Positions 7,441 through 61,342 of a stretch of 64,000 nucleotides of DNA are shown piece after piece. Numbering within the stretch: the stretch's first letter is position 1; the number at the start of each line of letters is the position of its first letter. This DNA comes from Heterodontus francisci (lineage: Eukaryota). Position numbers and translations under genes: made by a program. The notes beneath the pieces were generated by a model. That model saw only the letters and a list, made by a program, of their open reading frames with translations, was not told the origin of the DNA and made no database searches. The stretch is from positions 52,782,581 to 52,846,580 of the forward strand of contig NC_090385.1 of NCBI RefSeq assembly GCF_036365525.1, written 5' to 3'.

Positions 7441-8677
7441 GCCTCCAGCAATGAATGGCAGAGCAGGCTCGAGGGGCTGAATGGCCTACTCCTGCTCCTA
7501 TTTCCTAGGATGCCATCTTTTTTGATCACAGCTGTTACAGAGCTGCAACAATCTGCGTGCTGCTGAACACGCTGAATAATTCCTTGCCTTGCTCTAGTAT
7601 CCAGCTCGACTTTCCATTTGTCCCTGATGTGGATACTACATTTCCTTGGTGGATCTATCGAAGGAACTGCGTCATCACTCACATGTAGGAGAGCATTTCC
7701 TTTGAAACTTCCTACGGTGTCAAATCGGTCTGGGTACATTTGTTGCAAATCCTGGATGGATTCAATGGGGTCACATCTATTTTGATCCTGTGTCCTTGGC
7801 ACACTGCTGACTCATGGATTCGAAGCTTGCTACATATTGATAGCCCTGCAACTGCTGGACCATTGGTGTCAACAACGTAGATGACTTGTGGTGACCGCAC
7901 AGTTTCCATACCTGCACTCCAACATTGGTGAACCGTTTGTACGCAGTGAGTTTAGTCTTGGTAGGTTGTATCATGGCTCCCCATCTTGTCAAGTATATAT
8001 TCTTTAGTATTCTCAGTGGCAAAATATTTGCACTTGCCCCTGTATTGACCTCGAGTCGCAGCTTGTGCTGGCCACTCGTCTCTGGGCAGATGATGTCAAT
8101 GGTGGTGAATGCTTCCTGCTGTATAACCGCATCCATCTGGTGTGCAACTGTTACCGTGTGAAAAGCTTGTTCACCTTCAGTGCCTTCTTTATAGCTTACG
8201 TCCTTGTCTATCTTGTGGACATGAATGTGTTTAGATTAGCCTCTTACAAATGCATCCCTGTTGCTCCCACAAGGTGTGCGTGTTTCTCGTCAGGCCGTGG
8301 CCTGCTGTGACTTCTGATCAATTTTCCATTACCAGACCTCTTGCACAGCCTTGCCCAGTGCCCTTTCTTATCACACACCTTGCAGTTATCCATGTAAGCT
8401 GGACAGTTTCTTGGTTGGTGCATCACACTGCACTTGTCACATATTTTGCCTTGTTGAGGTGACCTGGTTTCCTCGCCTATGGTTGTTGTTCCAAGTGCTT
8501 TTGAGCACTGTCTGCTTGCAGCTATGGCCTCGAACTTCCTACCTTCTTTCAGGAGACTTTTGATGGCATACCCTTTTTCCTTGTCTAATAGTTCTTTCTG
8601 AAAAGCTTCTATCGGAGTTAGATGCAATCACCAATTCATTATCCGTTCGGATAACTCCACCTCCAAGAAATCACAGA

Positions 8678-10270: not shown

Positions 10271-10718
10271 TGCTATGCTCTTAAATGAGGGTAAATCCAC
10301 TGCATATAACTTAAAGTGATTGCACTCATACTCAGAACTTCATGACCTCTGGATCCATCAGGACAAATATTGTCAGTCCTCTATATGATTGCATCACTCT
10401 GAACATGAGGGCAATAGTAACTCTCCCATCTGTTGCAGGATAAAAATTGAAATTTTCACATTTCCCACTTGCCCAATTGACCATTATCCGATTGTGAGCA
10501 TAGACAGAGAGAGTCAGTCCGCTACTGAACAGAAGGGCATCACAGCCAAGTATAGTCTTGTCCTCACCCATTGTTCAAAATGTAGATAGCAATCAAGCTA
10601 TCCTTGTGGTTTTATTTTTCTTTCCTTAGCCCAGGGGAACGGAGGAAAATTGAAGCGCCTCTATTGCTGCATTGGCTAAAGATCAGCTCGCTCAGCACAA
10701 CACAGGGATTGAAATCAA

Positions 10719-10936
10719 AACAGAAAATGCAAGATAAATTCAGCAGGTCAGACAGCATTTATAGAGACAGAAACAGAGCTAATGTTTTAGGTCTGTGACT
10801 TTTCATCAGGTCATCGACTTGAAATGTTGCTAACTCTGTTTCTCTCTCCACAGGTGCTGTCTGACCTGCGAAGTATTTCCAGCATTTTCTGTTTTGATTT
10901 TAGATTTCCAGCATCGCAGTATTTTGCTTTTGTATT
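10719..10936. mobile_element. Short fold-back Penelope-terminus element
   Basis: Inverted arms of the Penelope terminal sequence; 15-bp TSD AGGGATTGAAATCAA (10704-10718 and 10937-10951). Confidence 0.8.
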
Positions 10937-11197
10937 AGGGATTGAAATCAAGTGGCTGTTCACTGGATGGAGCAGTTTGACCAGATCAGAGAGATTGACT
11001 GCCAAGGGAAAGGGACATACAAGGTGGTAGATTTAAATTTCAAGTTCACTTCTGCTAAACTTAAAGTTTTTTTTTGAAAAGCTGTAACCTTTGGCTATGT
11101 CTCATGTGGGGGTTTTATTATGTTTATCTCTTAGCAAAAAAAAACTAGTACCTTAGTACACTGTGTCAACTGTGAGTAAATTGATTTTAAAGTTAAC

Positions 11198-16278: not shown

Positions 16279-17977
16279 TCTTCTTCTTCGGCCTCCTTGT
16301 CTCGAGAGACAATGGGTAAGTGCCTAGAGGTGGTCAGTGGTTTGTGAAGCAGCACCTGGAGTGGCTATAAAGGCCAATTCTAGAGTGACAGACACTTCCA
16401 TAGGCACTGCAGATAAAATTGGTTGTTGGGGCTGTTACACAGCTTGCGCTTCGGTCTTTTTTCCTGCCAACAGCTAAGTCTCTTCGAATCGCCACTCTTT
16501 AGCCCCGCCTTTATGGCTGTCTGCCAGCTCTGGCGATCACTGGCAACTGACTCTCACGACTTGTGGTCAATGTCACAGGACTTCATGTCGCGTTTGCAGA
16601 CGTCCTTAAAGCGGAGACATGGGCGGCCGGTGGGTCTCATACCAGTGACTAGCTCGCTGTACAATGTGTCCTTGGAGATCCTGCCATCTTCCATGCGGCT
16701 CACATGGCCAAGCCATCTCAAGCGCCACTGGTTCAGTAGGGTGTATATGCTGGGGATGTTGGCCACTTCGAGGACTTCTGTGTTGAAGATACGGTCCTGC
16801 CACCTGATGCCAAGGATTCTCCGGAGGCAGCGAAGATGGAATAAATTGAGACGTCGCTCTTGGCTGACATATGTTGTCTAGGCCTCGCTGCCGTAGAGCA
16901 AGGTACTGAGGACACAGGCTTGATACACTTGGACTTTTGTGTTCTGTGTCAGTGCGCCATTTTCCCACACTCTCTTGGCCAGTCTGGACATAGCAGCGGA
17001 TGTCTTTCCCATGCGCTTGTTGATTTCTGCATCAAGAGACAGGTTACTGGTGATAGTTGAGCCTCGATAGGTAAACTCTTGAACCACTTCCAGAGCGCAG
17101 TCACCGATGTTGATGGATGGAGCATTTCTGACGTCCTGTCCCATGATGTTCGTTTTCTTGAGGCTTTCAAGAGTGCCAAGCCTGCTATACTCTCAGCACT
17201 CCATGAACTGCTTTGCCTGTGCTGGGATGAAGGAGCAGTACCACAGGACATGCACAATGCCAATATCATTACCCTCTATAAGAACAAGGGTGACCGCGGT
17301 GACTGCAATAACTACCGTGGAATCTCCCTGCTTAGGATAGTGGGGAAAGTCTTCACTCGAGTCATTTTAAACAGGCTCCAGAAGCTGGCTGAGCGTGTCT
17401 ATCCTGAGGCACAGTGTGGCTTTCGAGCAGAGAGAGCCACCATTGACATGCTGTTCTCCCTTCGCCAGCTACAGGAGAAATGCCGAGAACAACAGATGCC
17501 CCTCTACGTTGCTTTCATAGATCCCACCGAAGCCTTTGACCTCGTCAGCAGACGTGGTCTCTTCAGACTACTAGCAAAGATCAGATGTCCACCAAACTTA
17601 CTAAGTATCATCACCTCATTCCATGACAATATGAAAGGCACAATTCAGCATAGCAATGCCTCATCAGACCCCTTTCCTATCCTGAGTGGCGTGAAACAGA
17701 GCTGTGTTCTCACACCTACACTGTTTGGGATCTTCTTCTCCCTGCTGCTCTCATGTGTTCAAGTCTTCAGAAGAAGGAATTTTCCTCCACACAAGATCAG
17801 ATGGCAGGTTGTTCAACCTTGCCTGTCTAAGAGCGAAGACCAAAGTACAGAAGGTCCTCATCAGGGAACTCCTCTTTGCCGACGATGCTGCATTAACATC
17901 CCACACAGATGAGTCTCTGCAGAGACTCATCGACAGGATTGCGGCTGCCTGCAACGAATTTGGCCTAACCATCAGCC
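16279..17977 (-). mobile_element. RTE-clade LINE, 5'-truncated with an inverted 5' part
   Basis: 3' part on the minus strand (16279-17165, (GAA)n tail, YQACVLSTLLYGSE); RT part on the plus strand (NYRGISLL..QCGFR..GVKQ..LFADD); 10-bp TSD TTTGACATTG. Confidence 0.93.
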
Positions 17978-22740: not shown

Positions 22741-22910
22741 TTTTCTGCTACATTTTCAGTCATACAAATCATCTTACCTCAAATTATTTTGCCTTTTATA
22801 TCTTAAATTACTCTCATGGGTAAGTCCCACTCCCCATACCTTTGAACTTGTTTATCCTTACGTTAGGATCTGGCTAAACTTTCAATAACACACCACAAGC
22901 AAATGGCAGA

Positions 22911-23126
22911 AATAAAAACAAAAAGTGTTGGAAATACTCAGCAGGTCTGGCAGCATCTGTGGAGAGAGAAGTAGAGTTAACGTTTCAGGTCAGTGACCTT
23001 TCATCACTGACCTGAAATGTTAACTCTGCTTCTCTCTCCACAGATGCTGCCAGACCTGCTGAGCATTTCCAACACTTTTTGTTTTTATTTCAGATTTCCA
23101 GCATCTGCAGTATTTTGCTTTTATTT
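22911..23126. mobile_element. Short fold-back Penelope-terminus element
   Basis: Near-perfect ~85-bp inverted arms; 14-bp TSD AAGCAAATGGCAGA / AACCAAAGGGCAGA. Confidence 0.85.
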
Positions 23127-24354
23127 AACCAAAGGGCAGATACTGTATGGTAATTATTTTTAGCTACTGGGTTTATCTTATGGCTTCATAAGATTTCACT
23201 CTGGTCTCCAAAAGCAATCATATATCATATTCAACACTATCAGTCATCAAAGAGTGGTCAAAGGAAGGTTCGGGCTGATTAGAGACTGAAACGGAGATTT
23301 TCTTGTGAAGGCAGAGGGCCTGGATGAGGTACTAATTGAAAATAATTCACTAGAGAAGAGGATACTGCCAATACAGCAGTAAAGGAGAAGGCAGTAGCAA
23401 TATTGGATAGGATAATAATAAAGAAAAAGGAGGCACTTAATAGGTTGGCAGTCCTCAAAGTAGAAAAGTCACTTGGCCTGGATAAAAATGACAGAGACTG
23501 TGAACAAATATTTTGTACCTGTCTTCATGATAGAAGACTGTAAAAGCATCCCAATACTAGTAGAAAATCAAGGGGCAAAAGGGAAGGAAGAACTTAAAGC
23601 ACTCATTAGCACTAGAGAAGAAGTACTAGCCAAACTAATGGGACTAAAGTTTGACAAGTGCCCCGGACCTGATGGCCTGCACCCTCGGGTCTTAAAAGAA
23701 GTGGCTGTAGAGATCATGGATGCATTGGTTGTAGTCTTCCAAAATTCCCTAGATTCTGGAAAGAGCAGATTGGAAAACTGTAGATGTAATGCTGTTATTC
23801 AAGAAAGGAGAGAGACAGAAAGCAGGAAACTATAGTCCAGTTAGCGTAACATTTCTGATTGGGAAAATGCTGTATCCATTATTAAGGAAGTAGTAGCAGG
23901 ACATTTGGAAAATCATAATACAATCAAGCAGAGTCAGCATGGTTTTATGTTAGGGACATCATGTTTGACAAATTTATTAGAGTTCTTTAGGGATGTAACA
24001 AGTAGGGTGGGTAAAGGGGAACCATTAGATTATAGCGTATTTGGATTTCCAAAAGGCATTCGATAAGGTACCACATAAAAAGTTACTGCACAAGATAAGA
24101 GTGCATGGTGTTGGAGGTAATATATTAGCATGGCTAGAGGATTGGCTAATTAACAGAAAATAGAGAGTTAACATAAATGGATCATTTTCAGGTTGGCAAA
24201 CCATAACTAGTAGAGTGTGACAGGGAACAGTGCTGGGGTCTCAACTGTTTACAATCTATAGTCATAACTTGGATGAAGGGATTGAGTGTATTGTCGCCAA
24301 ATTTACTGACGATACAAAGATAGGTAGGAAAGCAATTTATGAGGAAGACACAAA

Positions 24355-25824: not shown

Positions 25825-26258
25825 AAAGAGTCTGCAAAGGGATATAGATAGCTTCAGTGAGTGGGCAAATTTTGGCAAATGGAGTATAATGTGGGAAATA
25901 TGAGGTTATCCTTTTTGGTAGGAAGAATAGAAAAGCAATACAATTTGTAAATGGAGAGAGACTATGGAATGCTGTAGTACAGAGGGATATGGGTGTCCTC
26001 ACACATGAAACATAAAAAGTTAGCATGAAAGTATAGCAAGTAATTAGGAAGGTAAATGGAATGTTGGCCTTTATTGCAAGGGGGATTGATTATAAAAGTA
26101 GCGCAGTTTTGCTACACGTACAGAGTGTTGTTGAGACCACACCTAGAGTACTGGAGACAGTTTTCATCTCATTATTTAAGGAGGGATACACTTGCATTGG
26201 AGGTGGTTCAGAGAAGGTTTACTAGATTGATTCCTGGGATGAAGGGGTTGTCTTATGA

Positions 26259-28100
26259 GGATTAAGGAGAATCCCAAGGCTTTTTATACGTATATAAAGA
26301 GCAAGAGGGTAACCAAGGAAAGGGTTGGCCCACTCAAGGACAGAGGAGGGAATCTATGTGTGGAGCCAGAAGAAATGGGTGAGGTACTAAATGAGTACTT
26401 TGCATCAGTATTCACCAAAGAGAAGGACTTGGTGGATGATGAGTCTAGGGAAGGGAGTGTAGATAGTCTGGGTCATGTCGTTATCAAAAAGGAGGAGGTG
26501 TTGGGCGTCTTGCAAAGCGTTAAGGTAGATAAGTCCCCAGGGCCTGATGGGATCTACCCCAGAATACTGAGGGAGGCAAGGGAAGAAATTGCTGGGGCCT
26601 TGACAGAAATCTTTGTATCCTCATTGGCTACAGATGAGGTCCCAGAGGACTGGAGAATAACCAAAATTGTTCCTTTGTTTAAGAAGGGTAGCAAGGATAA
26701 TCCAGGAAATTATAGGCCGGTGAGCCTTACGTCAGTGGTAGGGAAATTATTAGACAGGATTCTTCGGGACAGGATTTACTCCCATTTGGAAACAAATGAA
26801 CTTATTAGCGAGAGGCAGCATGGTTTTGTGAAGGGGAAGTTGTGTCTCACTAACTTGATTGAGTTTTTTGAGGAAGTGACGAAGATGATTGATGAAGGAA
26901 GGGCAGTGGATGTTGTCTATATGGATTTCAGTAAAGCCTTTGACAAGGTCCCTCATGGCAGACTGGTACAAAAGGTGAAGTCACACAGGATCAGAGGTGA
27001 GTTGGCAAGATGGATACAGAACTGGCTTGGTCATAGAAGATAGAAGGTAGCAGTGGAAGGGTGTTTTTCTGAATGGAGGGATGTGACTAGTGGTGTTCCG
27101 CAGGGATCAGTGCTGGGACCTTTGCTGTTTGTAGTGTATATAAATGATTTGGAGGAAAATGTAGCTGGTCTGATTAGTAAGTTTGCGGATGACACAAAGG
27201 TTGGTGGAGTTGCGGATAGTGATGAGGATTGTCAGAGAATACAGCAGGATATAGACCAGTTGGAGACTTGGGCAGAGAAATGGCAGATGGAGTTTAATCC
27301 GGACAAATGTGAGGTAATGGATTTTGGAAGATCTAATACAGGTGGGAAGTATACAGTAAATGGCAGCACCCTTAGGAGTATTGACAGGCAGAGAGATCTG
27401 GGTGTACAGGTCCACAGGTCACTGAAAGTGGCAACGCAGGTGGATAAGGTAGTCAAGAAGGCATACGGCATGCTTGCCTTCATCGGTCGGGGCATAGAGT
27501 ATAAAAATTGGCAAGTCATGCTGCAGCTGTACAGAACTTTAGTTAGGCCACACTTAGAATATTGCATGCAATTCTGTTCGCCACACTACCAGAAGGACTT
27601 GGAGGCTTTGGAGAGGGTACAGAGGAGGTTTACCAGGATGTTGCCTGGTCTGGAGGGCATTAGCTATGAGGAGAGGTTGGATAAACTCAGATTGTTTTCA
27701 CTGGAACGACGGAGGTGGAGGGGCGACATGATAGAGGTTTACAAAATTATGAGTGGCATGGACAGAGTGGATAGTCAGAAGCTTTTTCCCAGGGTGGAAG
27801 AGTCAGTTACTAGGGGACATAGGTTTAAGGTGCGAGGGGCAAAGTTTAGGGGGGATGTGCGAGGCAAGTTCTTTACACTGAGGGTGGTGAGTGCCTGGAA
27901 CTTGCTGCCGGGGGAGGTGGTGGAAGCAGATACGATAGCGACGTTTAAGAGGAATCTTGACAAATACATGAATAGGATGGGAATAGAGGGATACAGTGCC
28001 TGGAAGTGCAGAAGGTTTTAGTTTAGGCAGGCATCAAGATCGGCGCAGGCTTGGAGGGCCGAATGGCCTGTTCCTGTGCTGTACTGTTCTTTGTTCTTTG
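26259..28100 (+). mobile_element. Young 5'-truncated CR1 LINE; ORF2 broken only by one in-frame TAG
   Basis: ORFs 26255-27043 and 27053-28021 lie in the same frame and cover the RT (NYRPVSL, QHGF, GVPQGSVLGP, FADD); (TTCTTTG)n tail. Confidence 0.95.
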
Positions 28101-31319: not shown

Positions 31320-31492
31320 TAGCAAAGCAGAATACTGTGGGTGCTGGAAATATGAAATAAAAACAGAAAATGCTGGAAATACTCAGGAGGCTAGGCAGTA
31401 CCAGTAGGGAGAGAAACAAAGTTAACGTTTTAGGTCAATGTTCTTAATGAACGGCCATCGATCTGCAACGTTTCTCTCTCCACAAATGCTGG
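31320..31492. mobile_element. Degenerate fold-back Penelope-terminus element in a CCNB3 intron
   Basis: aaaacagaaaatgctggaaatactcag..gttaacgttttaggtc..tctctctccacaaatgctg. Confidence 0.65.
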
Positions 31493-43824: not shown

Positions 43825-44185
43825 GTTGGTCACTTTTTTTTCTATAATTGGAACTAGAATTTTCAGTGCCACTTGCCTAAGCTTACTAGTGGTCAATATA
43901 CTCATTTGACACCAAGCACACAATTTTGTTTGTTCCCTCTGTTCTATTCCAGAAAGTTGGTGAAGGATAGTACTGAAGTCAATCTTTACAGTCTTGTAAT
44001 GTTTCAGTCTGTAAATAAATGCAAGCATACACCTAACTCAACCACACCCCATTTTCAAATAGTGTGCTCAAGTGAAACCCCAATTAATGCGCTCCACCTG
44101 CATATGATTAAACTCAATTAATATACAATTAACGCCCTCTTCTCCTGAAGGCACTTAACTGTTTCTGGGATATATTTGCTCTGTA

Positions 44186-45172
44186 ATAAAAACAGAAAGT
44201 GTTTGAAATACTCAGCAGGTCTGGCAGCATCTATGGAGAGAGAAAGCAGAGTTAACATTTCAGGTCAGTGACCTTTCATCAGAACTGGCAAAAGTTAGAA
44301 ATGTTTTAAGCAAATAAAGCAGTCACGGGGGAAGACAGAACAAAAGGGAAGATATTGATGGGACAGAGGGCCGGAGAGATTAACCGATGAGGAGGTCATG
44401 GGGCAAAGGCAAAGAGTGTGCTAATGGTGTGGTGAAAGACACTGCATTAGTGCAGTGAGATTGTTAATGAAAATCATGAACAGCCCTAACCAAAAGCATA
44501 AACATGAAAAAACCAGTGGGCAGGTACATGTTTTTTTAAATAAACAAAATAAAATAAAGTAAAAATAAAAAAGGGCCCGTCATGCTCTGAAATTATTGAA
44601 CTCACTATTCAGTCTAGTATGCTGTAGTGTGCCTAATCGGTAAATGAGGTGCTGTTCACTAGAACACTGCAGCAAGCCCAGCATAGAGGTGTAGGCATGA
44701 GAGCAGTGGGGTGTGTTGAAATGGCAAGCGACTGGAAGCTTGGGGTCACGTTTTTGGACTGAGCGGAGGTGTTCCACAAAGCGGTTACCCAATTTACGTT
44801 TGGTCTCCCCAATGTAGAGGAGACTGCATTGTGAGCAGCGAATACAATATACTAAATTGAAAGAAGTACAAGTAAATTGCTGCTGCACCTCAACGGAGTG
44901 TTTGGGGGCCTTGGATAGTGAAAGAGGAGGTAAAAGGGCAGGTATTACACCTCGTGCGATTGCATGGGAAGGTGCAGTGCGACGGGGATGAGGTGTCGGG
45001 GGTAATGGAGTGGATCAGGGTGTCTCGGAGGGCACAATCCCTTCGAAATGTGGGAGGGGAAGATGGGTTTGGTGGTGGCATCACATTGGAAATGGTGGAG
45101 GATGATCCTTTGGATGTGGAGACTGGTTGGGTGGAAAGTGAGGACAAGGGGAACCCTGTCGTGGTTCTGGGC
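44186..45172 (-). mobile_element. Penelope-like element 3' portion (GIY-YIG endonuclease plus terminal repeat)
   Basis: NLVYCIRCSQCSLLYIGETKRKLGNRFVEH; 14-bp TSD ATATTTGCTCTGTA (44172-44185 and 45173-45186). Confidence 0.92.
44250..44286 (-). ncRNA. Minimal type I hammerhead ribozyme motif in a Penelope terminus
   Basis: AGUU-CUGAUGA-A-AGGUC(ACU)GACCU-GAA-AUGU-U-AACU: conserved core with helix I AGUU/AACU and helix II AGGUC/GACCU. Confidence 0.75.
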
Positions 45173-45916
45173 ATATTTGCTCTGTAGTTTGAGACCATAA
45201 GAGGAGTGATGTGGTACTGCTGAGAGTGCAGAGAGCTTTTGTCTGTATCCAGCTCATGCTGTACCTAACCTAAGGAGATTTTTACTGCTTGCTACTATGT
45301 GCAAAGGGTGCTATTCACAGAATATTGATGGCATCATGATCTTCACCATCGAGCAGTACAAAGCTGTTGCCTTATGTTTTCCCCCTGTCCCTGCACACCT
45401 CCAAAAGAAAGCAGATAGAGAGAATAAGGCTATCAGGAAATTCTGTTTTGGGAACAGCAAGGTTTAAACATTGCTATCAATACTAAATATTCTCTGCTAT
45501 TTGGAGTTAATATTTGAGATGCCCTTGAAAATGACAAAAATTTACATGAAAGTAGGAAAGTATTCTCAACTGTCCAACTGAAAGTCTGGCATTTGAGAAC
45601 TATCTCTGAAATGTTATCTTACAGAAATAATAGTCAAAGTTACTAATCTTGCCTCTAGCTGATGCATCGAAGGGCTGCTTGGAAACTACTGTACTATTGT
45701 ATTATAATTGTGATATGTCACATTCATTTATGGGGGGGAAATGGGTTGAAGCTTGTCTGGGGATCAGAAGGGATGGTTAACTCACCTTGTGTATGTTTTT
45801 TCAGCAGTACAACTGTTCATGAGCTCTCTTCTGGTTGGAAATGTCAGTTTAGTTTTCAGAGTGCACTGCTAGACTAATCTGCCTGTGTTTTCTTACAATC
45901 TGAATAATGTTTACAG

Positions 45917-55600: not shown

Positions 55601-55968
55601 ATCCATTAATCAAACTGCCTCTTAAATGCTTCTGTGCTATTTGCCTTAATTGCTTCTTGTGGTAGGAAGCTCCTCATTGTAATCACTCTCTAGCTAAAGA
55701 AGTTTGCAGTCGTGTTCATGTGACAGACATGCAGATGAATATAAAAATAAAATATTATAGCATCTACTTTTGGCTGGGTTTAGATTCTTCTCTATGCGCA
55801 TGTGCAAAAGAAGTCCTTCAGTTGAAGGAACATTCTAATCCGTAAATGAGATCCAAGTGCTGACGAATCATGCACATATGCCCCCACATCTGTCTGTTGA
55901 TGTATATGCGCAACTAAAATCCAAGTGCTGATTAGCTGCTGTACATGTGCAAATAAGATCCACATGAT

Positions 55969-58900
55969 ATAAAAACAGAAAGTGCTGGAAGTACTCAGCA
56001 GGTCTGGCAGCATCTGTAGAGAGAGAAGCAGAGTTAACATTTCAGGTCTGTGATCTTCCATCAGGACTGGCAAAGGTTAAAAATGTAATAGGTTTTAAGC
56101 AAATAAAGTGGGGTGGGGGAAAAGAGAACAAAAGGGAAGGTGTTGATAGGACAGAGGGCCAGAGAGATTAACTGACAAGGAGGTCATGAAACAAAGGCAA
56201 ACAGAGTGTGCTAATGGTGTGCTGAAAGACAAAGCATTAGTGCAGAGAGGGTGTTAAATGGAAGAATAATGAACAGTCCTAGCCAAAAGCACAAACATGA
56301 AAAAAACAGTGGGCAGGCACATAGTAAAAAAAAATGAAACAAGTAAAAATTAAAAAAAAAGGGCCAGTCATGCTTAATTATTGAACTCAATGTTCAGTCC
56401 AGTAGGCTGTAATCGGTAATCGGTAAATGAGGAGCTGTTCCTCGAGCTTGTGTTGATGTTCACTGCAATACTGCAGCACTGCAGTAAGCCCAGGACAGAG
56501 ATGTGGGCATGAGAGCGGAGTGGGTGTGTTGAAATGGCAAGTGATCGGAAGCTCTGGGTCATGGTTTGAGACAGAGCGGAGGTGTTTCGCAAAGCGGTCA
56601 CCCAATCTGCGTTTGGTCTCTCAAATGTAGAGGAGACCTCATTGTGAGCATCGAATACAGTATACTAAATTGAAAGAAGTACAAATAAATCGCTGCTTCA
56701 CCTGAAAGGAGTGTTTGGGGCCTTGGATATTGAGGAGAGAGCAGGTAAAAGGGCAGGTATTACACCTCCTGTGATTGCATGGGAAGGTGCCACAGGAAGG
56801 GGACGAGGTGTCAGGGGTAATGGAGGAGCGGAGTAGGGTGTTGCGGACGGAACGATCCCTTCAGAATGCTGACGGGGGAGGAAAAGATGCGTTTGCTGAT
56901 GGCATCACGCTGGAGGTGGCAAAAATGGCGGAGGATGATCCTTTGGATGTGGAGGCTGGTGGGGTGGAAACTGAGGACAAGGAGAACCCTGTCGCGGCTC
57001 TGGGAGGGAGGTGAAGGGGAGGGGGCAGAAGTGCAGGAAGTGGGCTGGACATATCAGAAGCACTGTTGAGGAAGGTTGCATCATCAGCCCGCTTCTACCC
57101 CCTTCCCAAAATCCACAAACCGGACTGTCTTGGCAGACCCATCGTTTCAGCCTGTTCCTGCCCCACTGAACTTATTTCTTCCTATCTTGACTCTATCTTT
57201 TCTCCCTGGCCCAGTCTCTTCCCACCTACATCCCTGACACTTCTGACGCCCTATGTCATTTTTCCATTTTCCAGTTTCCTAGCCCTAACCGCCTCCTCTT
57301 CACTATGGATGTCCAATCCCGCTACACCTCCTTCTCCCACCAGGATGGTTTGAGGGCTCTCCGCTTCTCCCTTGAACAGAGGCCCAACCAGTCCCCATCC
57401 ACCACCACCCTCCTCTGCCTGGCTGAACTTGTACTCATATTGAACAACTTCTCCTTCAACTCCACTCACTTCCTTCAAATAAAAGGTGTTGCTATGCGTA
57501 CCCGCATGGGTTCTAGTTATGCCTGTCTTTTTGTGGGATATGTCAAACATTCCTTGTTCCAGTCCTACTCTGGTCCGCTCCCCCATTTCTTTTTCCGGTA
57601 CATTGATGACTGTATCAGTGCCATTTCCTGCTCCGACCCTGAACTGGAAAACTTTATTCACTTTGCTTCCAATTTCCACCCTTCTCTCACCTTTACATGT
57701 TCCATCTCCAACACCTCCCTTCCCTTCCTTGACTTCTCTGTCTCCATCTCTGGGGATAGCCTGTCCACTAATATTCATTGTAAGCCCACCAACTCCCACA
57801 GCTACCTTGAATAAAATTCATCACACCCTGCCTCCTGTAAGGACTCCATTCCATTCTCCCAATTTCTCTGTCTCCAACACATCTGCTCTGATATGCAACC
57901 TTCCGCAACAGCACTTCTGATATGTCTTCCTTTTCCCTCAACCGAGGATTGCCCCCCACTGTGGTTGACAGGGCCTTCAACCGTGTCCGGCCCATTTCCT
58001 GGAGAAAAGATAGAGTCAAGATAGGAAGAAATAAGTTCAGTGGGGCAGGAACAGACTGAAACGATTGGTCGGCCAAGACAGATGGTTTGTGGATTTTGGG
58101 AAGGAGGTAGAAGCGGGCTGATGATGCAACCTTCCACAACAGCGCTTCTGATATGTCCAGCCCACTTCCCGCACTTCTACCCCCTCCCCTTCACCTCCCT
58201 CCCAGAGCTGCGACAGGGTTCTCCTTGTCCTCAGTTTCCACCCCACCAGTCTCCACATCCAAAAGATCATCCTCCGCCATTTCCGCCACCTCTAACATGA
58301 TGCCAACACCAAACGCATCTTCCCTTTCCCTCCTCTGTCAGCATTCCAAAGGGATCATTCCCTCCACGACACCCTGGTCCACTCTTCCATCACTCCCGAC
58401 ACCTCGTCCCCTTCCCATGCAATCGCGGGATATGTAATACCTGCCCTTTTACCTCCTCTCTCCTCACTATCAAAGGCCCCAAACACTCCTTTCAGGTGAA
58501 GTAGCGATTTGCTTGTACTTCTTTCAATTTAGTATACTGTATTTGCTGCTCACATTGCGGTCTCCTCTACATTGGGGAGACCAAACGCAGATTGGGTGAT
58601 CATTTTGCGGAACACCTCTGCTTGTCTGTAAACATGACCCCCAGCTACCGGTTGCTTGCCATTTCAATTCACCACCCTGCTCTCATACCCACATCTCTGT
58701 CCTGGGCTTGCTGCAGTGTTGCAGTGAACATCAATGCAAGCTCGAGGAATAGCACCTCATTTACCAATAAGGCACACTACACCCTACTGGAGTTGAGTTC
58801 AATAATTTAAGAGCATGACTGGCCCCTTTTTATTTTTACTTTATTTTATTTTGTTTCATCATTTTGTTTTACCATGTGCCTGCCCACTGGTTTTTTCACG

Positions 58901-59203
58901 CTTGTGCTTTTAACTAGGGCTGCTCATTATTCTGTCATTCACATTCTCTCTGCACTAATGCTTTGTCTTTCAGCAAACCATTAACACACTCTGTTTGCCT
59001 TTGCCTCATAACCTCCTTGTCAGTTATTCTCTGTGGCCCTCTGTCCTATCACTCACCTCCCCTTTTGTTCTCTTTTCCCCCACCCCCACTTTATTTGCTT
59101 AAAACCTAATTATTTTCTAACCTTTGTCAGTTCTGATGAAAGGTCACACACCTGAAACATTAACTCTGCTTCTCTCTCCACAGATGCTGTCAGACATGCG
59201 GAG
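55969..59203. mobile_element. Palindromic Penelope-like composite (RT plus two inverted GIY-YIG/terminal arms)
   Basis: RT motifs ARFYPLPKIHK..GRPIVS, MDVQSRY, QIKGVAM, FRYIDDC; arms 55969-57205 and 58001-59195 are reverse complements. Confidence 0.92.
59129..59165 (+). ncRNA. Minimal hammerhead ribozyme motif (slightly decayed)
   Basis: AGUU-CUGAUGA-A-AGGU(CACAC)ACCU-GAA-ACAU-U-AACU. Confidence 0.65.
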
Positions 59204-59527
59204 TAAAGGCCAGCTACCCGACCCGACGATATGTGTTGGTTTCGGGTTGCACTTCCGGGTCCGGTATTCGAACTCGGGCCGGGTTGAACACGCTCCATCA
59301 CAACCTCAGGTTAGTGGCTCAGATATTAATTTACTTTTTGGTCTTTTTGTGGTGGTTTTGTTAGTTATTTTAAACTTGTGCAGGTAAGGAACAAAGTGAA
59401 GAACAGAAGGTAAGTTAACTGATGGTCGGGTTGGGAATGGGGAAAAATGGAAGGACTCAGGCCAGGTCTGGTTGTGGTTCTTTTGTGCTCGGGTCTGATT
59501 TCAGTTGCAGACCCGAGCAGGCCTTTA
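59204..59527. mobile_element. hAT-like MITE
   Basis: TIR TAAAGGCC..GGCCTTTA; subterminal ACCCG repeats; degenerate 8-bp TSD derived from CTGCTGAG. Confidence 0.7.
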
Positions 59528-59535
59528 CTGCTGAA

Positions 59536-60411
59536 TCATGGGGCAGGACGTCAGAAATGTTCCATCCATCAATATTGGCGACCACGCTCTGGAAGTGGTT
59601 CAAGAGTTCACCTACCTAGGCTCAACTATCACCAGTAACCTGTCTCTAGATGCAGAAATCAACAAGTGCATGGGAAAGGCTTCCACTGCTATGTCCAGAC
59701 TGGCCAAGAGAGTGTGGGAAAATGGCGCACTGACACAGAACACAAAAATCCGAGTGTATCAGGCCTGTGTCCTCAGTACCTTGCTCTATGGCAGCGAGGC
59801 CTGGACAACGTACGTCAGCTAAGAGCGACGTCTCAATTCATTCCATCTTCGCTGCCTCCGGAGAATACTTGGCATCAGGTGGCAGGACCGTATCTCCAAC
59901 ACAGAAGTCCTCGAGGCAGCCAACATCCCCAGCTTATACACACTACTGAGTCAGCGGCGCTTGAGATGGCTTGGCCATGTGAGCCGCATGGAAGATGGCA
60001 GGATCCCCAAAAACACATTGTACAGCGAGCTCGTCACTGGTATCAGACCCACCGGCCGTCCATGTCTCCGCTTTAAAGACGTCTGCAAACGCGACATGAA
60101 ATCCTGTGACATTGATCACAAGTCGTAGGAGTCAGTTGCCATCGTTCGCCAGAGCTGGCGGGCAGCCATAAAGGCAGGGCTAAAGTGTGGCGAGTCGAAG
60201 AGACTTAGCAGTTGGTAGGAAAAATGACAGAGGCGCAAGGGGAGAGCCAACTGTGTAACAGCCCCGACAAACAATTTTTTCTGCAGCACCTGTGGAAGAG
60301 CCTGTCAGTCTAGAATTGGCCTTTATAGCCACTCCAGGCGCTGCTTCACAAACCACTGACCACCTCCAGGCGCTTACCCATTGTCTCTTGAGATAAGGAG
60401 GCCAAAGAGAG
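59536..60411 (+). mobile_element. RTE LINE 3' fragment, same family as 16279-17165
   Basis: MGQDVRNVPSINIGDHALEVVQEFTYLGS..YQACVLSTLLYGSEAW. Confidence 0.92.
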
Positions 60412-60419
60412 TTCCAACA

Positions 60420-60541
60420 CGTTAACTCTGCTTCTCTATAGATGCTGCCAGACCTGCTGAGTGATTCCAGCATTTCTTGTTTTTATTCCAGCACTTTCCG
60501 TTTTCATTTCAGATTTCCAACATCTGCAATATTCCGCTTTT
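60420..60541 (+). mobile_element. Remaining Penelope terminal sequence
   Basis: gttaactctgcttctct..cagatttccaacatctgcaatatt. Confidence 0.75.
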
Positions 60542-60660
60542 AAAATCCACGTGCTGATTGGCTGTTGATGGGCATGCGCAAATGGAAGCCCAGTGTCGAT
60601 TGGCTGTTGATAGGCATGCGCAAATGGAATCCCTCGGTTGTTGATTGGCATGCGTTTCGT
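60541..60660 (+). promoter_or_regulatory. MARS2: MARS2 promoter: ~42-bp tandem units each with a CCAAT box (ATTGG) and an NRF1-like GCATGCG(CA)
   Basis: gattggctgttgat(g/a)ggcatgcgcaaatggaa occurs twice, plus a partial third unit, immediately upstream of a CpG island. Confidence 0.65.
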
Positions 60661-60770: not shown

Positions 60771-61092
60771 ATGACAGGTTCGGCGTACAGGCGAGCTGTG
60801 CGCCTAGCTCGTGAGTTGCCGTCTTTCGGCGCTAGGTGCTTCTGGTCGCCCGCTGGCAGTGAGCGGGGTCTCCGCTGCCGTCTGCCTCCGGGCTGCGCAG
60901 TCGCTTGCATCGTCCGTGCTCTGCCCTGCCGGTACTCGGGATCCTTGGCCGGCCTCAGCCCTTTCCTCATCACGACTCCCATCTTCTATGTGAATGCGGC
61001 TCCTCATATCGGCCACCTGTACTCAGCGGTGCTGGCGGACGCCTTGTACCGTTCCAAGGTTTTACTGGGATACCAAGCCAAGTTTGTAACAG
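60771..61092 (+). CDS. MARS2: Mitochondrial methionyl-tRNA synthetase, first coding exon (gene continues beyond the window)
   Basis: Arg-rich mitochondrial-presequence-like N terminus, then [26 protein letters not shown] (class I HIGH motif of MetRS). Similarity ends at the ACAG|GTACAA donor inside the expected TG-TDEHG motif. Confidence 0.93.
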
Positions 61093-61342
61093 GTACAAGG
61101 GACCAGCGGCCTCCGCAGCAGCCAGTTATCCCGTAAACAAACGGGAGCTTTCTCCTTGTGCCCCGCGTATCTCCAGAAAACTGAACGTGAAGTTGGCAGA
61201 ATTAATTTGGGAAAGATTACCCGCATGTTGTATTCAATGTTTACATTGAAAAGAAATTCCAAATTTTAGTTAATGTTTCTACACAACTTTATGCATTATT
61301 TATCATATGAAACAGTTTTCCACAAGTTTTAGTAACTTATTA

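What the first reader, a model, noticed from the sequence alone, without database searches (positions are those of the whole stretch)
22897..23140. ~217-bp fold-back Penelope mini-elements that turn around at the hammerhead ribozyme
Seen: two independent inserts, 10719-10936 (218 bp) and 22911-23126 (216 bp), plus a decayed third at 31320-31492. Each consists only of the Penelope terminal sequence in two inverted arms. The two intact inserts carry long TSDs (15 and 14 bp), like the coding Penelope copy at 44186 (14 bp). The hairpin apex falls at the helix II/core of the hammerhead motif (..TTTCAGGTCAGTGACCTTTCATCACTGACCTGAAA..). Inference: these are either a non-autonomous hairpin retroelement family mobilised by Penelope RT/GIY-YIG, or recurrent integration products in which the ribozyme structure sets the point of template fold-back.
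Basis: partly seen in the sequence, partly recalled or inferred. Interest (0 to 1): 0.7.

Follow-up and report, generated by a model that had tools for sequence, protein, structure and literature searches.

The report
Double-primed Penelope retrotransposon hairpin stubs
These ~217-base hairpins are real, very short head-to-head insertions of the end of a Penelope-type jumping gene, made anew at each site rather than copied as a family, likely when both cut DNA strands each prime a copy that runs off the front of the element's RNA just ahead of its ribozyme motif.

Summary
In detail: 22911-23126 and 10719-10936 are inverted pairs of a Penelope-like (Neptune/Nematis-type) terminus with 14-15 bp TSDs and a 36-nt tail on one arm; 31320-31492 is decayed. 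They are not a family. The 6-Gb genome holds at least 4,099 + 8,271 such fold-backs; 49 of 50 sampled junctions differ; the 22911 junction occurs 170 times, in several subfamilies, with the tail on either side. The apex is not set mainly by helix II: solo and paired arms alike end at the ribozyme's 5' edge (-8..+6, peak -6..-2), often after an extra G, which fits a capped RNA start (inferred; no RNA-end data). Helix II supplies the joint in a minority (615 loci). Exactly one arm is tailed in 79 of 85 fold-backs, and each arm often holds sequence the other lacks, so two separately primed cDNAs were likely joined by microhomology. The layout (inverted pLTR, tail, TSD) is published; the twin-priming/run-off reading was not found in my eight searches, but this scan has reported it before, in this genome and at least 28 others. 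Moderate interest.

The parts
22897..22910 (+). left TSD copy (14 bp, 2 mismatches to the right copy)
22911..23006 (-). tail-less arm of the Penelope terminus, +96 to +1; carries helix II, GAAA, helix III but lacks C3 and the helix I 5' strand
23004..23006 (.). 3-nt microhomology (TCA) joining the arms
23004..23089 (+). second arm, +11 to +96; lacks the CUGANGA box
23090..23126 (+). 36-nt tail (+97 to +132), between the two inferred reverse-transcription start sites
   Evidence: PMC11167929
23127..23140 (+). right TSD copy
10704..10951 (.). older fold-back 10719-10936 with perfect 15-bp TSD; arms end at 0 and +8; tail on the right arm; the two helix II loops differ (ACA / ATC)
31320..31492 (.). 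decayed fold-back: tailed antisense arm, short deleted sense arm from -3; no long TSD found
44172..45185 (-). 1-kb 5'-truncated, tail-less single arm (44186-45171) with GIY-YIG remnant and 14-bp TSD
55966..59205 (.). long inverted pair of the same element (arms about 1.1 and 2.1 kb, RT remnant), joined about 1 kb upstream of the ribozyme motif: long end of the same continuum

Best explanation
These hairpins are independently formed, dead-end insertions of a Penelope-like retrotransposon end, likely made when both strands of the cut target each prime a cDNA at one of two internal start sites on the element's RNA, the cDNAs run off the RNA's predicted capped 5' end just ahead of the hammerhead motif, and their ends are joined by microhomology. 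Shown: TSD about 14 bp; one tailed and one tail-less arm; arm ends piled at -8..+6; excess G before the -4 base; variable junctions with microhomology or short inserts; +97 and +133 lie inside the 5' leader of an intact 3,296-bp tandem unit (ATG at +168). Inferred: that -4 is the transcription start (TATAA begins 29 nt upstream, initiator-like TCAGTT), that the G copies the cap, that both cDNAs come from one RNA or one source locus, and that host end-joining makes the joint. Helix II and helix I matter only as local sources of complementarity for the joint.
For: One tailed arm in 45 of 50 and 34 of 35 fold-backs and 30 of 30 helix-II joints (3 of these 30 are also in the 35), while 42 of 85 unselected arms carry a tail, so independent arms would give about half. 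The tail-less arm reaches further at the apex in 21 of 45 and 17 of 34, which self-priming on one cDNA cannot give. The helix II loop faces either way, 18:12. Unselected arms: of 67 that reach +6, 30 end in -8..+6 (15 nt), 9 in -35..-9 (27 nt), 28 run on; of the first 100 listed young arms, read by eye, 70, 4 and 26. G before AGTT 4,530 against A 2,242 genome-wide; G share 0.67, expected 0.44 from local composition. Arms agree at a multi-state subfamily site in 47 of 50 listed loci, about 0.34 expected from arm frequencies (by eye); 11 rare variants shared by both arms in 95 of 112 pairs. In vitro, the anole PLE cuts and extends both strands, starts at two internal sites that bound the tail, does not need ribozyme cleavage, and is predicted to be a dimer (PMC11167929). 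L1 twin priming and the extra cap G at full-length 5' junctions are the precedent (PMC11702581 passages).
Against: No RNA 5'-end data: the runs offered were contigs only. The -4 site also reads as a 3' splice site (YAG), and in D. virilis Penelope the intron ends at the 5' end of helix I (PMC4209133) with the transcription start further upstream (PMC2377424). The G could be a terminal-transferase addition; C also follows ends at -3 and -1, and in several loci the G is matched by the target. Arm concordance could come from subfamilies active at different times or from later hairpin correction; 76 rare variants are private to one arm, and the loops of the 10719 arms differ. PMC11167929 saw no difference of start site between strands, so the strict one-tail rule is not explained by its data. 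8 of 50 shorter arms end at +27..+35, around the predicted cleavage site (1 of 35 in the young set). The fold-back patterns cap the distance between arms, so those sets overstate apex clustering; only searches are free of that.
Confidence: 0.68

Rival explanations
1. A non-autonomous hairpin family: one or a few founder hairpins are transcribed and re-inserted by the Penelope protein.
For: Similar size and TSDs at many loci. Two loci 1.9 Mb apart (L320, L322) are the only two in the genome with one 3-nt-insert junction, share a loop variant and tail side, and have different flanks.
Against: 49 of 50 and 28 of 35 junction classes distinct; the 22911 junction has 170 copies in at least six sequence backgrounds with the tail on either side; a complex junction recurs in 25 loci of several backgrounds; neither window insert keeps a whole ribozyme core, the upstream promoter-like region or the sequence past the tail.
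Confidence: 0.05
2. Self-priming: one cDNA stalls at or folds back on helix II and copies itself (first reader; akin to the self-priming proposal in PMC3846280).
For: 615 loci join exactly on the helix II palindrome; one junction needs a short helix-II snap-back; in 18 of 30 helix-II joints the loop reads as the tailed arm's cDNA; arms share variants.
Against: 12 of 30 helix-II joints have the loop the other way; in 38 of 79 one-tailed fold-backs the tail-less arm holds apex sequence that the tailed arm lacks, as at 22911; solo arms end at the same boundary; ends pile up at the far (5') side of the structure, after the enzyme has passed it.
Confidence: 0.1
3. Two primed cDNAs as in the best explanation, but the 5' boundary is made by RNA processing (a 3' splice site at AG|TT or a nuclease cut beside the folded ribozyme), not by a transcription start, and the G is an untemplated addition.
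For: YAG is kept in all long variants seen (TCAG, CCAG, CTAG) after a pyrimidine tract; the D. virilis intron ends at this point of the ribozyme (PMC4209133); 12 of 14 ORF-bearing copies with a core in reach extend upstream of -4.
Against: No shared upstream exon sequence is joined to the short arms; many ends include the AG; TATAA begins 29 nt upstream of the -4 base.
Confidence: 0.15
4. The boundary is the hammerhead cleavage site.
For: A small bump of arm ends at +27..+35: 8 of 50 shorter arms, 5 of 85 unselected arms.
Against: The predicted cut (after GAAACGTT, +31/+32; read from the minimal motif of PMC4209133) lies about 35 nt from the main pile-up; the youngest subfamily has CCGAAGA in place of CUGANGA and shows the same boundary; helix I complementarity (AGTT/AACT) explains some +29..+33 joints.
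Confidence: 0.03

Closest known systems
Insertion unit of endonuclease-bearing Penelope-like elements: inverted 5'-truncated pLTR, optional 30-40 bp tail, TSD (PMC3846280, Pen2a_Av; PMC8557442 Fig. 2 legend)
   Same: Head-to-head inverted terminus, tail on one end, TSD, palindrome or overlap at the inverted junction.
   Different: Here both arms are reduced to about 100 nt, tens of thousands of copies exist, and the ends pile up at one boundary; PMC3846280 explains the inversion by self-priming on an antisense template.
Anole Poseidon PAc internal initiation (PMC11167929)
   Same: Two start sites near the 5' end of the unit that bound the tail; both target strands extended; ribozyme cleavage not needed; AT-rich junctions.
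   Different: Other clade; start sites lie in the ORF there and in the 5' leader here; the paper does not treat inverted stubs or the 5' boundary in the text read.
LINE-1 twin priming and cap-derived extra G (PMC11702581 passages; Ostertag and Kazazian 2001 seen only as a reference-list entry)
   Same: Second target strand primes internally; cDNAs joined by microhomology; TSD kept; extra G at complete 5' ends.
   Different: In L1 the two cDNAs copy different parts of the RNA; here they copy the same 100 nt, which needs strand displacement or two RNAs.
Metazoan non-LTR retrozymes (10.64898/2026.07.22.740005, abstract and introduction)
   Same: Short, non-coding, derived from the PLE pLTR with a type I hammerhead.
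   Different: Retrozymes are head-to-tail repeats with whole ribozymes forming families; these are head-to-head, with broken cores and unique junctions.

Membership tests
EN+ Penelope-like element (parent element) | One ORF with RT and C-terminal GIY-YIG | tested here: met
   896-aa ORF in tandem L375: RVT_1 E 2e-05, GIY-YIG E 0.0019, both below Pfam's curated cut-offs; DKG and YIDD motifs seen
EN+ Penelope-like element (parent element) | Tandem or partial-tandem units forming pLTRs | tested here: met
   3,296-bp head-to-tail units
EN+ Penelope-like element (parent element) | Minimal type I hammerhead in the pLTR | tested here: met
   AGTT-CTGATGA-A-helix II-GAAA-CG-TT-AACT read directly, fits PMC4209133; Rfam has no match; youngest subfamily has U4C; activity not tested
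EN+ Penelope-like element (insertion structure) | Inverted 5'-truncated copy, 30-40 bp tail on one end, TSD | tested here: met
Neptune/Nematis clade | CX2-5CxxC linker before GIY-YIG | tested here: met
   CNRRRCNTC in P0001; criterion from PMC8557442
Neptune versus Nematis | Placement in an RT tree | not tested
   no tree built
Non-autonomous hairpin family | Copies share one junction, one layout and private variants | tested here: not met
   one unexplained pair
Non-LTR retrozyme | Head-to-tail units each with a whole hammerhead | tested here: not met
   head-to-head; 22911 lacks C3 on one arm and the whole box on the other
Non-LTR retrozyme | Circular RNA from the locus | not testable with these tools
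   only contigs were offered
Twin-primed insertion | Each arm holds template sequence absent from the other; TSD kept; microhomology or insert at the joint | tested here: met
   38 of 79 one-tailed loci; 34 microhomology, 5 blunt, 46 insert of 85
Twin-primed insertion | Both cDNAs from one RNA molecule | tested here: inconclusive
   47 of 50 concordant; 11 shared against 76 private rare variants, A>G 3 of 11 against 5 of 76

The most novel reading that the evidence does not exclude
The stubs are a fossil record of an undescribed core step of Penelope transposition: a protein dimer primes both target strands at two fixed sites on one capped RNA and makes strong-stop-like cDNAs; long and tandem copies arise only from templates on which the start site is internal (a circle or a strand transfer to the 3' end), which would give the hammerhead a job at the RNA's 3' end. 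The contrast of 70 of 100 terminal arms against 2 of 14 ORF-bearing copies that stop at the boundary fits two classes of template.
Probability: 0.3. Interest if true: 0.7.

Novelty: new variant of a known kind. Interest (0 to 1): 0.42.

Why it matters
How Penelope-like elements make their inverted ends and one-sided tail, where their RNA starts and what the hammerhead does are open questions (PMC11167929, PMC8557442). Tens of thousands of minimal insertions turn them into countable predictions: one tail per hairpin, a fixed 5' boundary with an extra G, and no role for the cut site. The in-vitro system to test them exists. For annotation, these stubs should not be filed as MITEs, microRNA hairpins or a ribozyme family. 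The loci themselves show no sign of function.

Tried and rejected
Rfam scan of the window: no hammerhead model matched; weak microRNA hits at 22958-23042 only reflect the long hairpin. RNA runs: four of 20 listed runs were laid, all contigs; depth rises about 20-40-fold downstream of the boundary in three of them, but genomic copy number does the same and contigs show no RNA ends, so this is not used. BLAST with the 22911 insert returns look-alikes by design and was not used for proportions. The first junction script over-extended four palindromic loci; one search replaces it and still mis-calls a few (L158, L164, L197, L198, L206, L224 ends; L196, L202, L310 tails), left uncorrected in the counts. 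A test for shared A-to-G changes was too small to decide. Pfam found nothing in two of three window fragments. RNAfold of the tandem unit's CCG variant gave an alternative stem rather than the hammerhead fold; not evidence either way for a dimeric ribozyme. PMC11371274 and PMC6431247 passages added nothing. No tree, no structure or complex prediction was run.

Full report
Numbering: the C of the hammerhead CUGANGA box is 0; sense is the strand of the ORF.

1. Observation. Both intact inserts are as described. At 22911-23126 the left arm is antisense +96 to +1 and the right arm sense +11 to +132, overlapping by TCA; the TSD is 14 bp with 2 mismatches. At 10719-10936 the arms end at 0 and +8 with a perfect 15-bp TSD. 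31320-31492 is decayed with no long TSD. All three junctions differ and only one arm carries the last 36 nt. The window also holds a 1-kb single arm with a 14-bp TSD (44186-45171) and a long inverted pair (55966-59205) joined about 1 kb upstream of the motif.

2. Parent element. A search for what follows the tail found a 3,296-bp head-to-tail array (L375). Its unit has the hammerhead motif, then +97 and +133, then an 896-aa ORF from +168 with weak RVT_1 and GIY-YIG hits and a CX4CxxC linker, the mark of Neptune/Nematis (PMC8557442 passages). The motif fits the minimal, palindromic-helix-III hammerhead of PMC4209133 (parts 1-2 of 4 read), with a predicted cut near +31/+32; Rfam has no match. 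The youngest subfamily reads CCGAAGA. Upstream lie a C-rich box, TATAA starting 29 nt before the A at -4, and TCAGTT; the TATA and initiator consensus are recalled. That the host is a cartilaginous fish is my inference from recalled repeat sequences and genome size.

3. Abundance. Exact-word patterns find 4,099 and 8,271 (youngest subfamily) short fold-backs. In 1.2 Mb taken at 24 arbitrary places, 94 terminal clusters gave 13 fold-backs, 29 long copies and 52 short solo or unclear copies; four more scored just under the fold-back threshold. That is roughly 65,000-85,000 if extended to 6 Gb, a rough figure.

4. Family or recurrence. The first 50 listed loci and the first 35 of the 50 listed were fetched and scored: 49 and 28 distinct junction classes; lengths 154-283 bp; TSD in 38 of 50 and 33 of 35 (mode 14 bp; control 0 and 2); 34 joints with microhomology, 5 blunt, 46 with short inserts. 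The 22911 junction has 170 copies in at least six sequence backgrounds; of 30 fetched, 22 have the tail on one side, 5 on the other, 3 none. A complex junction recurs 25 times in several backgrounds. Against this stands one pair, L320 and L322, the only two copies of their junction, alike in loop variant and tail side but with different flanks; a common source locus or one re-mobilisation would both explain it.

5. Where the arms end. The fold-back patterns cap the arm distance, so unselected arms were used. Of 85 arms (62 from the random blocks, 23 from flanks of other loci), 3 end at +36..+60, 5 at +27..+35, 10 at +7..+26, 30 at -8..+6, 9 at -35..-9 and 28 run on. Of the first 100 of 58,832 arms with an exact helix II word, read by eye, 70 end at -7..+6, 4 at -8..-25 and 26 run on. 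Solo arms with TSDs stop at the same place. So the boundary is the 5' edge of the motif, not helix II or the cut site, and it does not need a fold-back. Before AGTT, G occurs 4,530 times and A 2,242 times among 10,848 non-C cases; the G share of G+A is 0.67 against 0.44 expected. In some loci the G is in neither target copy (L180, L181, L296, L300, L308), in others it is matched by the target. An extra G marks capped full-length 5' ends in L1 (PMC11702581 passages). A capped start at -4 is the simplest reading, but the site is also a YAG acceptor, and the D. virilis intron ends here (PMC4209133; start site further upstream, PMC2377424 part 2 of 4). RNA runs were contigs and decide nothing.

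6. How the two arms arise. Exactly one arm is tailed in 45 of 50 and 34 of 35 loci, against 42 of 85 tailed among unselected arms. In 21 of 45 and 17 of 34 the tail-less arm reaches further at the apex, as at 22911, so each arm holds sequence that the other lacks; one self-primed cDNA cannot give that. The helix II palindrome is the joint in 615 loci and 4 of 35 young ones; in 30 of 30 fetched one arm is tailed and the loop faces either way, 18:12. In six of these the tail-less arm begins inside the terminus next to the TSD, as expected for priming by target microhomology. Arms agree at a multi-state site in 47 of 50 listed young loci (about 0.34 expected, by eye) and share 11 rare variants in 95 of 112 pairs, 17 pairs dropped for misalignment or divergence; same source locus is supported, same RNA molecule is not shown, and later hairpin correction is not excluded. 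The 10719 arms differ in the loop. PMC11167929 (parts 1-2 of 4) supplies the biochemistry: both strands cut and extended, two internal starts that bound the tail, cleavage not needed, predicted dimer; it saw no strand difference in start site.

7. Long copies. Of 19 fetched copies that continue into the ORF, 14 have the core in reach; 2 start at the boundary and 12 extend upstream. Terminal arms stop there far more often. This hints at two template classes (capped linear, and circular or read-through, the circle being proposed in PMC4209133), on a small sample that includes tandem units.

8. Comparison and novelty. The inverted pLTR, tail and TSD are published (PMC3846280 passages; PMC8557442 passages; PMC8969392 passages); PMC4209133 notes min-HHR pairs on opposite strands 100-700 bp apart. 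Retrozymes are head-to-tail (10.64898/2026.07.22.740005, part 1 of 5). Eight searches showed no paper on twin priming, the one-tail rule or a capped boundary in PLEs; subscription papers, Repbase and supplements were not seen. The scan's own notes hold the same reading many times: 201 findings in at least 29 genomes and 96 in this genome; they are unchecked and are not counted as support.

9. Verdict. Real; recurrent dead-end products of a known insertion pattern; not a family; the ribozyme shapes a minority of joints. Interest 0.42, for a testable account of an open mechanism.

Noticed in passing
L375 (G000:C1:104036500-104046400): Head-to-tail array of 3,296-bp units with an open 896-aa RT-endonuclease ORF; the youngest subfamily has CCGAAGA in place of the CUGANGA hammerhead box, so the most successful recent lineage may have a weakened ribozyme.
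   Followed up: partly
L320:1480-1710 and L322: Two fold-backs 1.9 Mb apart are the only two copies of one 3-nt-insert junction and share a loop variant; candidate for a re-mobilised hairpin or a common source locus.
   Followed up: partly
L314 and L318: Two fold-backs with the same complex junction sit about 50 bp apart in copies of the same host repeat on one contig; hints at a local target preference.
   Followed up: no
L375, leader of the unit (+33 to +168): Four acceptor-like pyrimidine-YAG motifs follow one another (at about +51, +100, +136, +164), two just before an ATG; the tail itself is a degenerate repeat of the 35 nt before it.
   Followed up: no
L157: Fold-back with tails on both arms inside a larger perfect inverted duplication that includes the flanks; probably a later rearrangement.
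   Followed up: no
window 60419-60542: Short sense copy with a duplicated +72..+96 stretch before the tail, next to another retro-insertion and just upstream of a probable gene start.
   Followed up: no
window 60950-61100: ORF fragment with [23 protein letters not shown], which resembles the HIGH motif region of a mitochondrial methionyl-tRNA synthetase (recalled, not searched).
   Followed up: no
window 16285-17912 and 59535-60408; 26243-28021; 7777-8627: Other retroelement remnants by eye: an RTE-like pair in opposite orientation at 92% identity, CR1-like copies, and gag/protease-like fragments.
   Followed up: no
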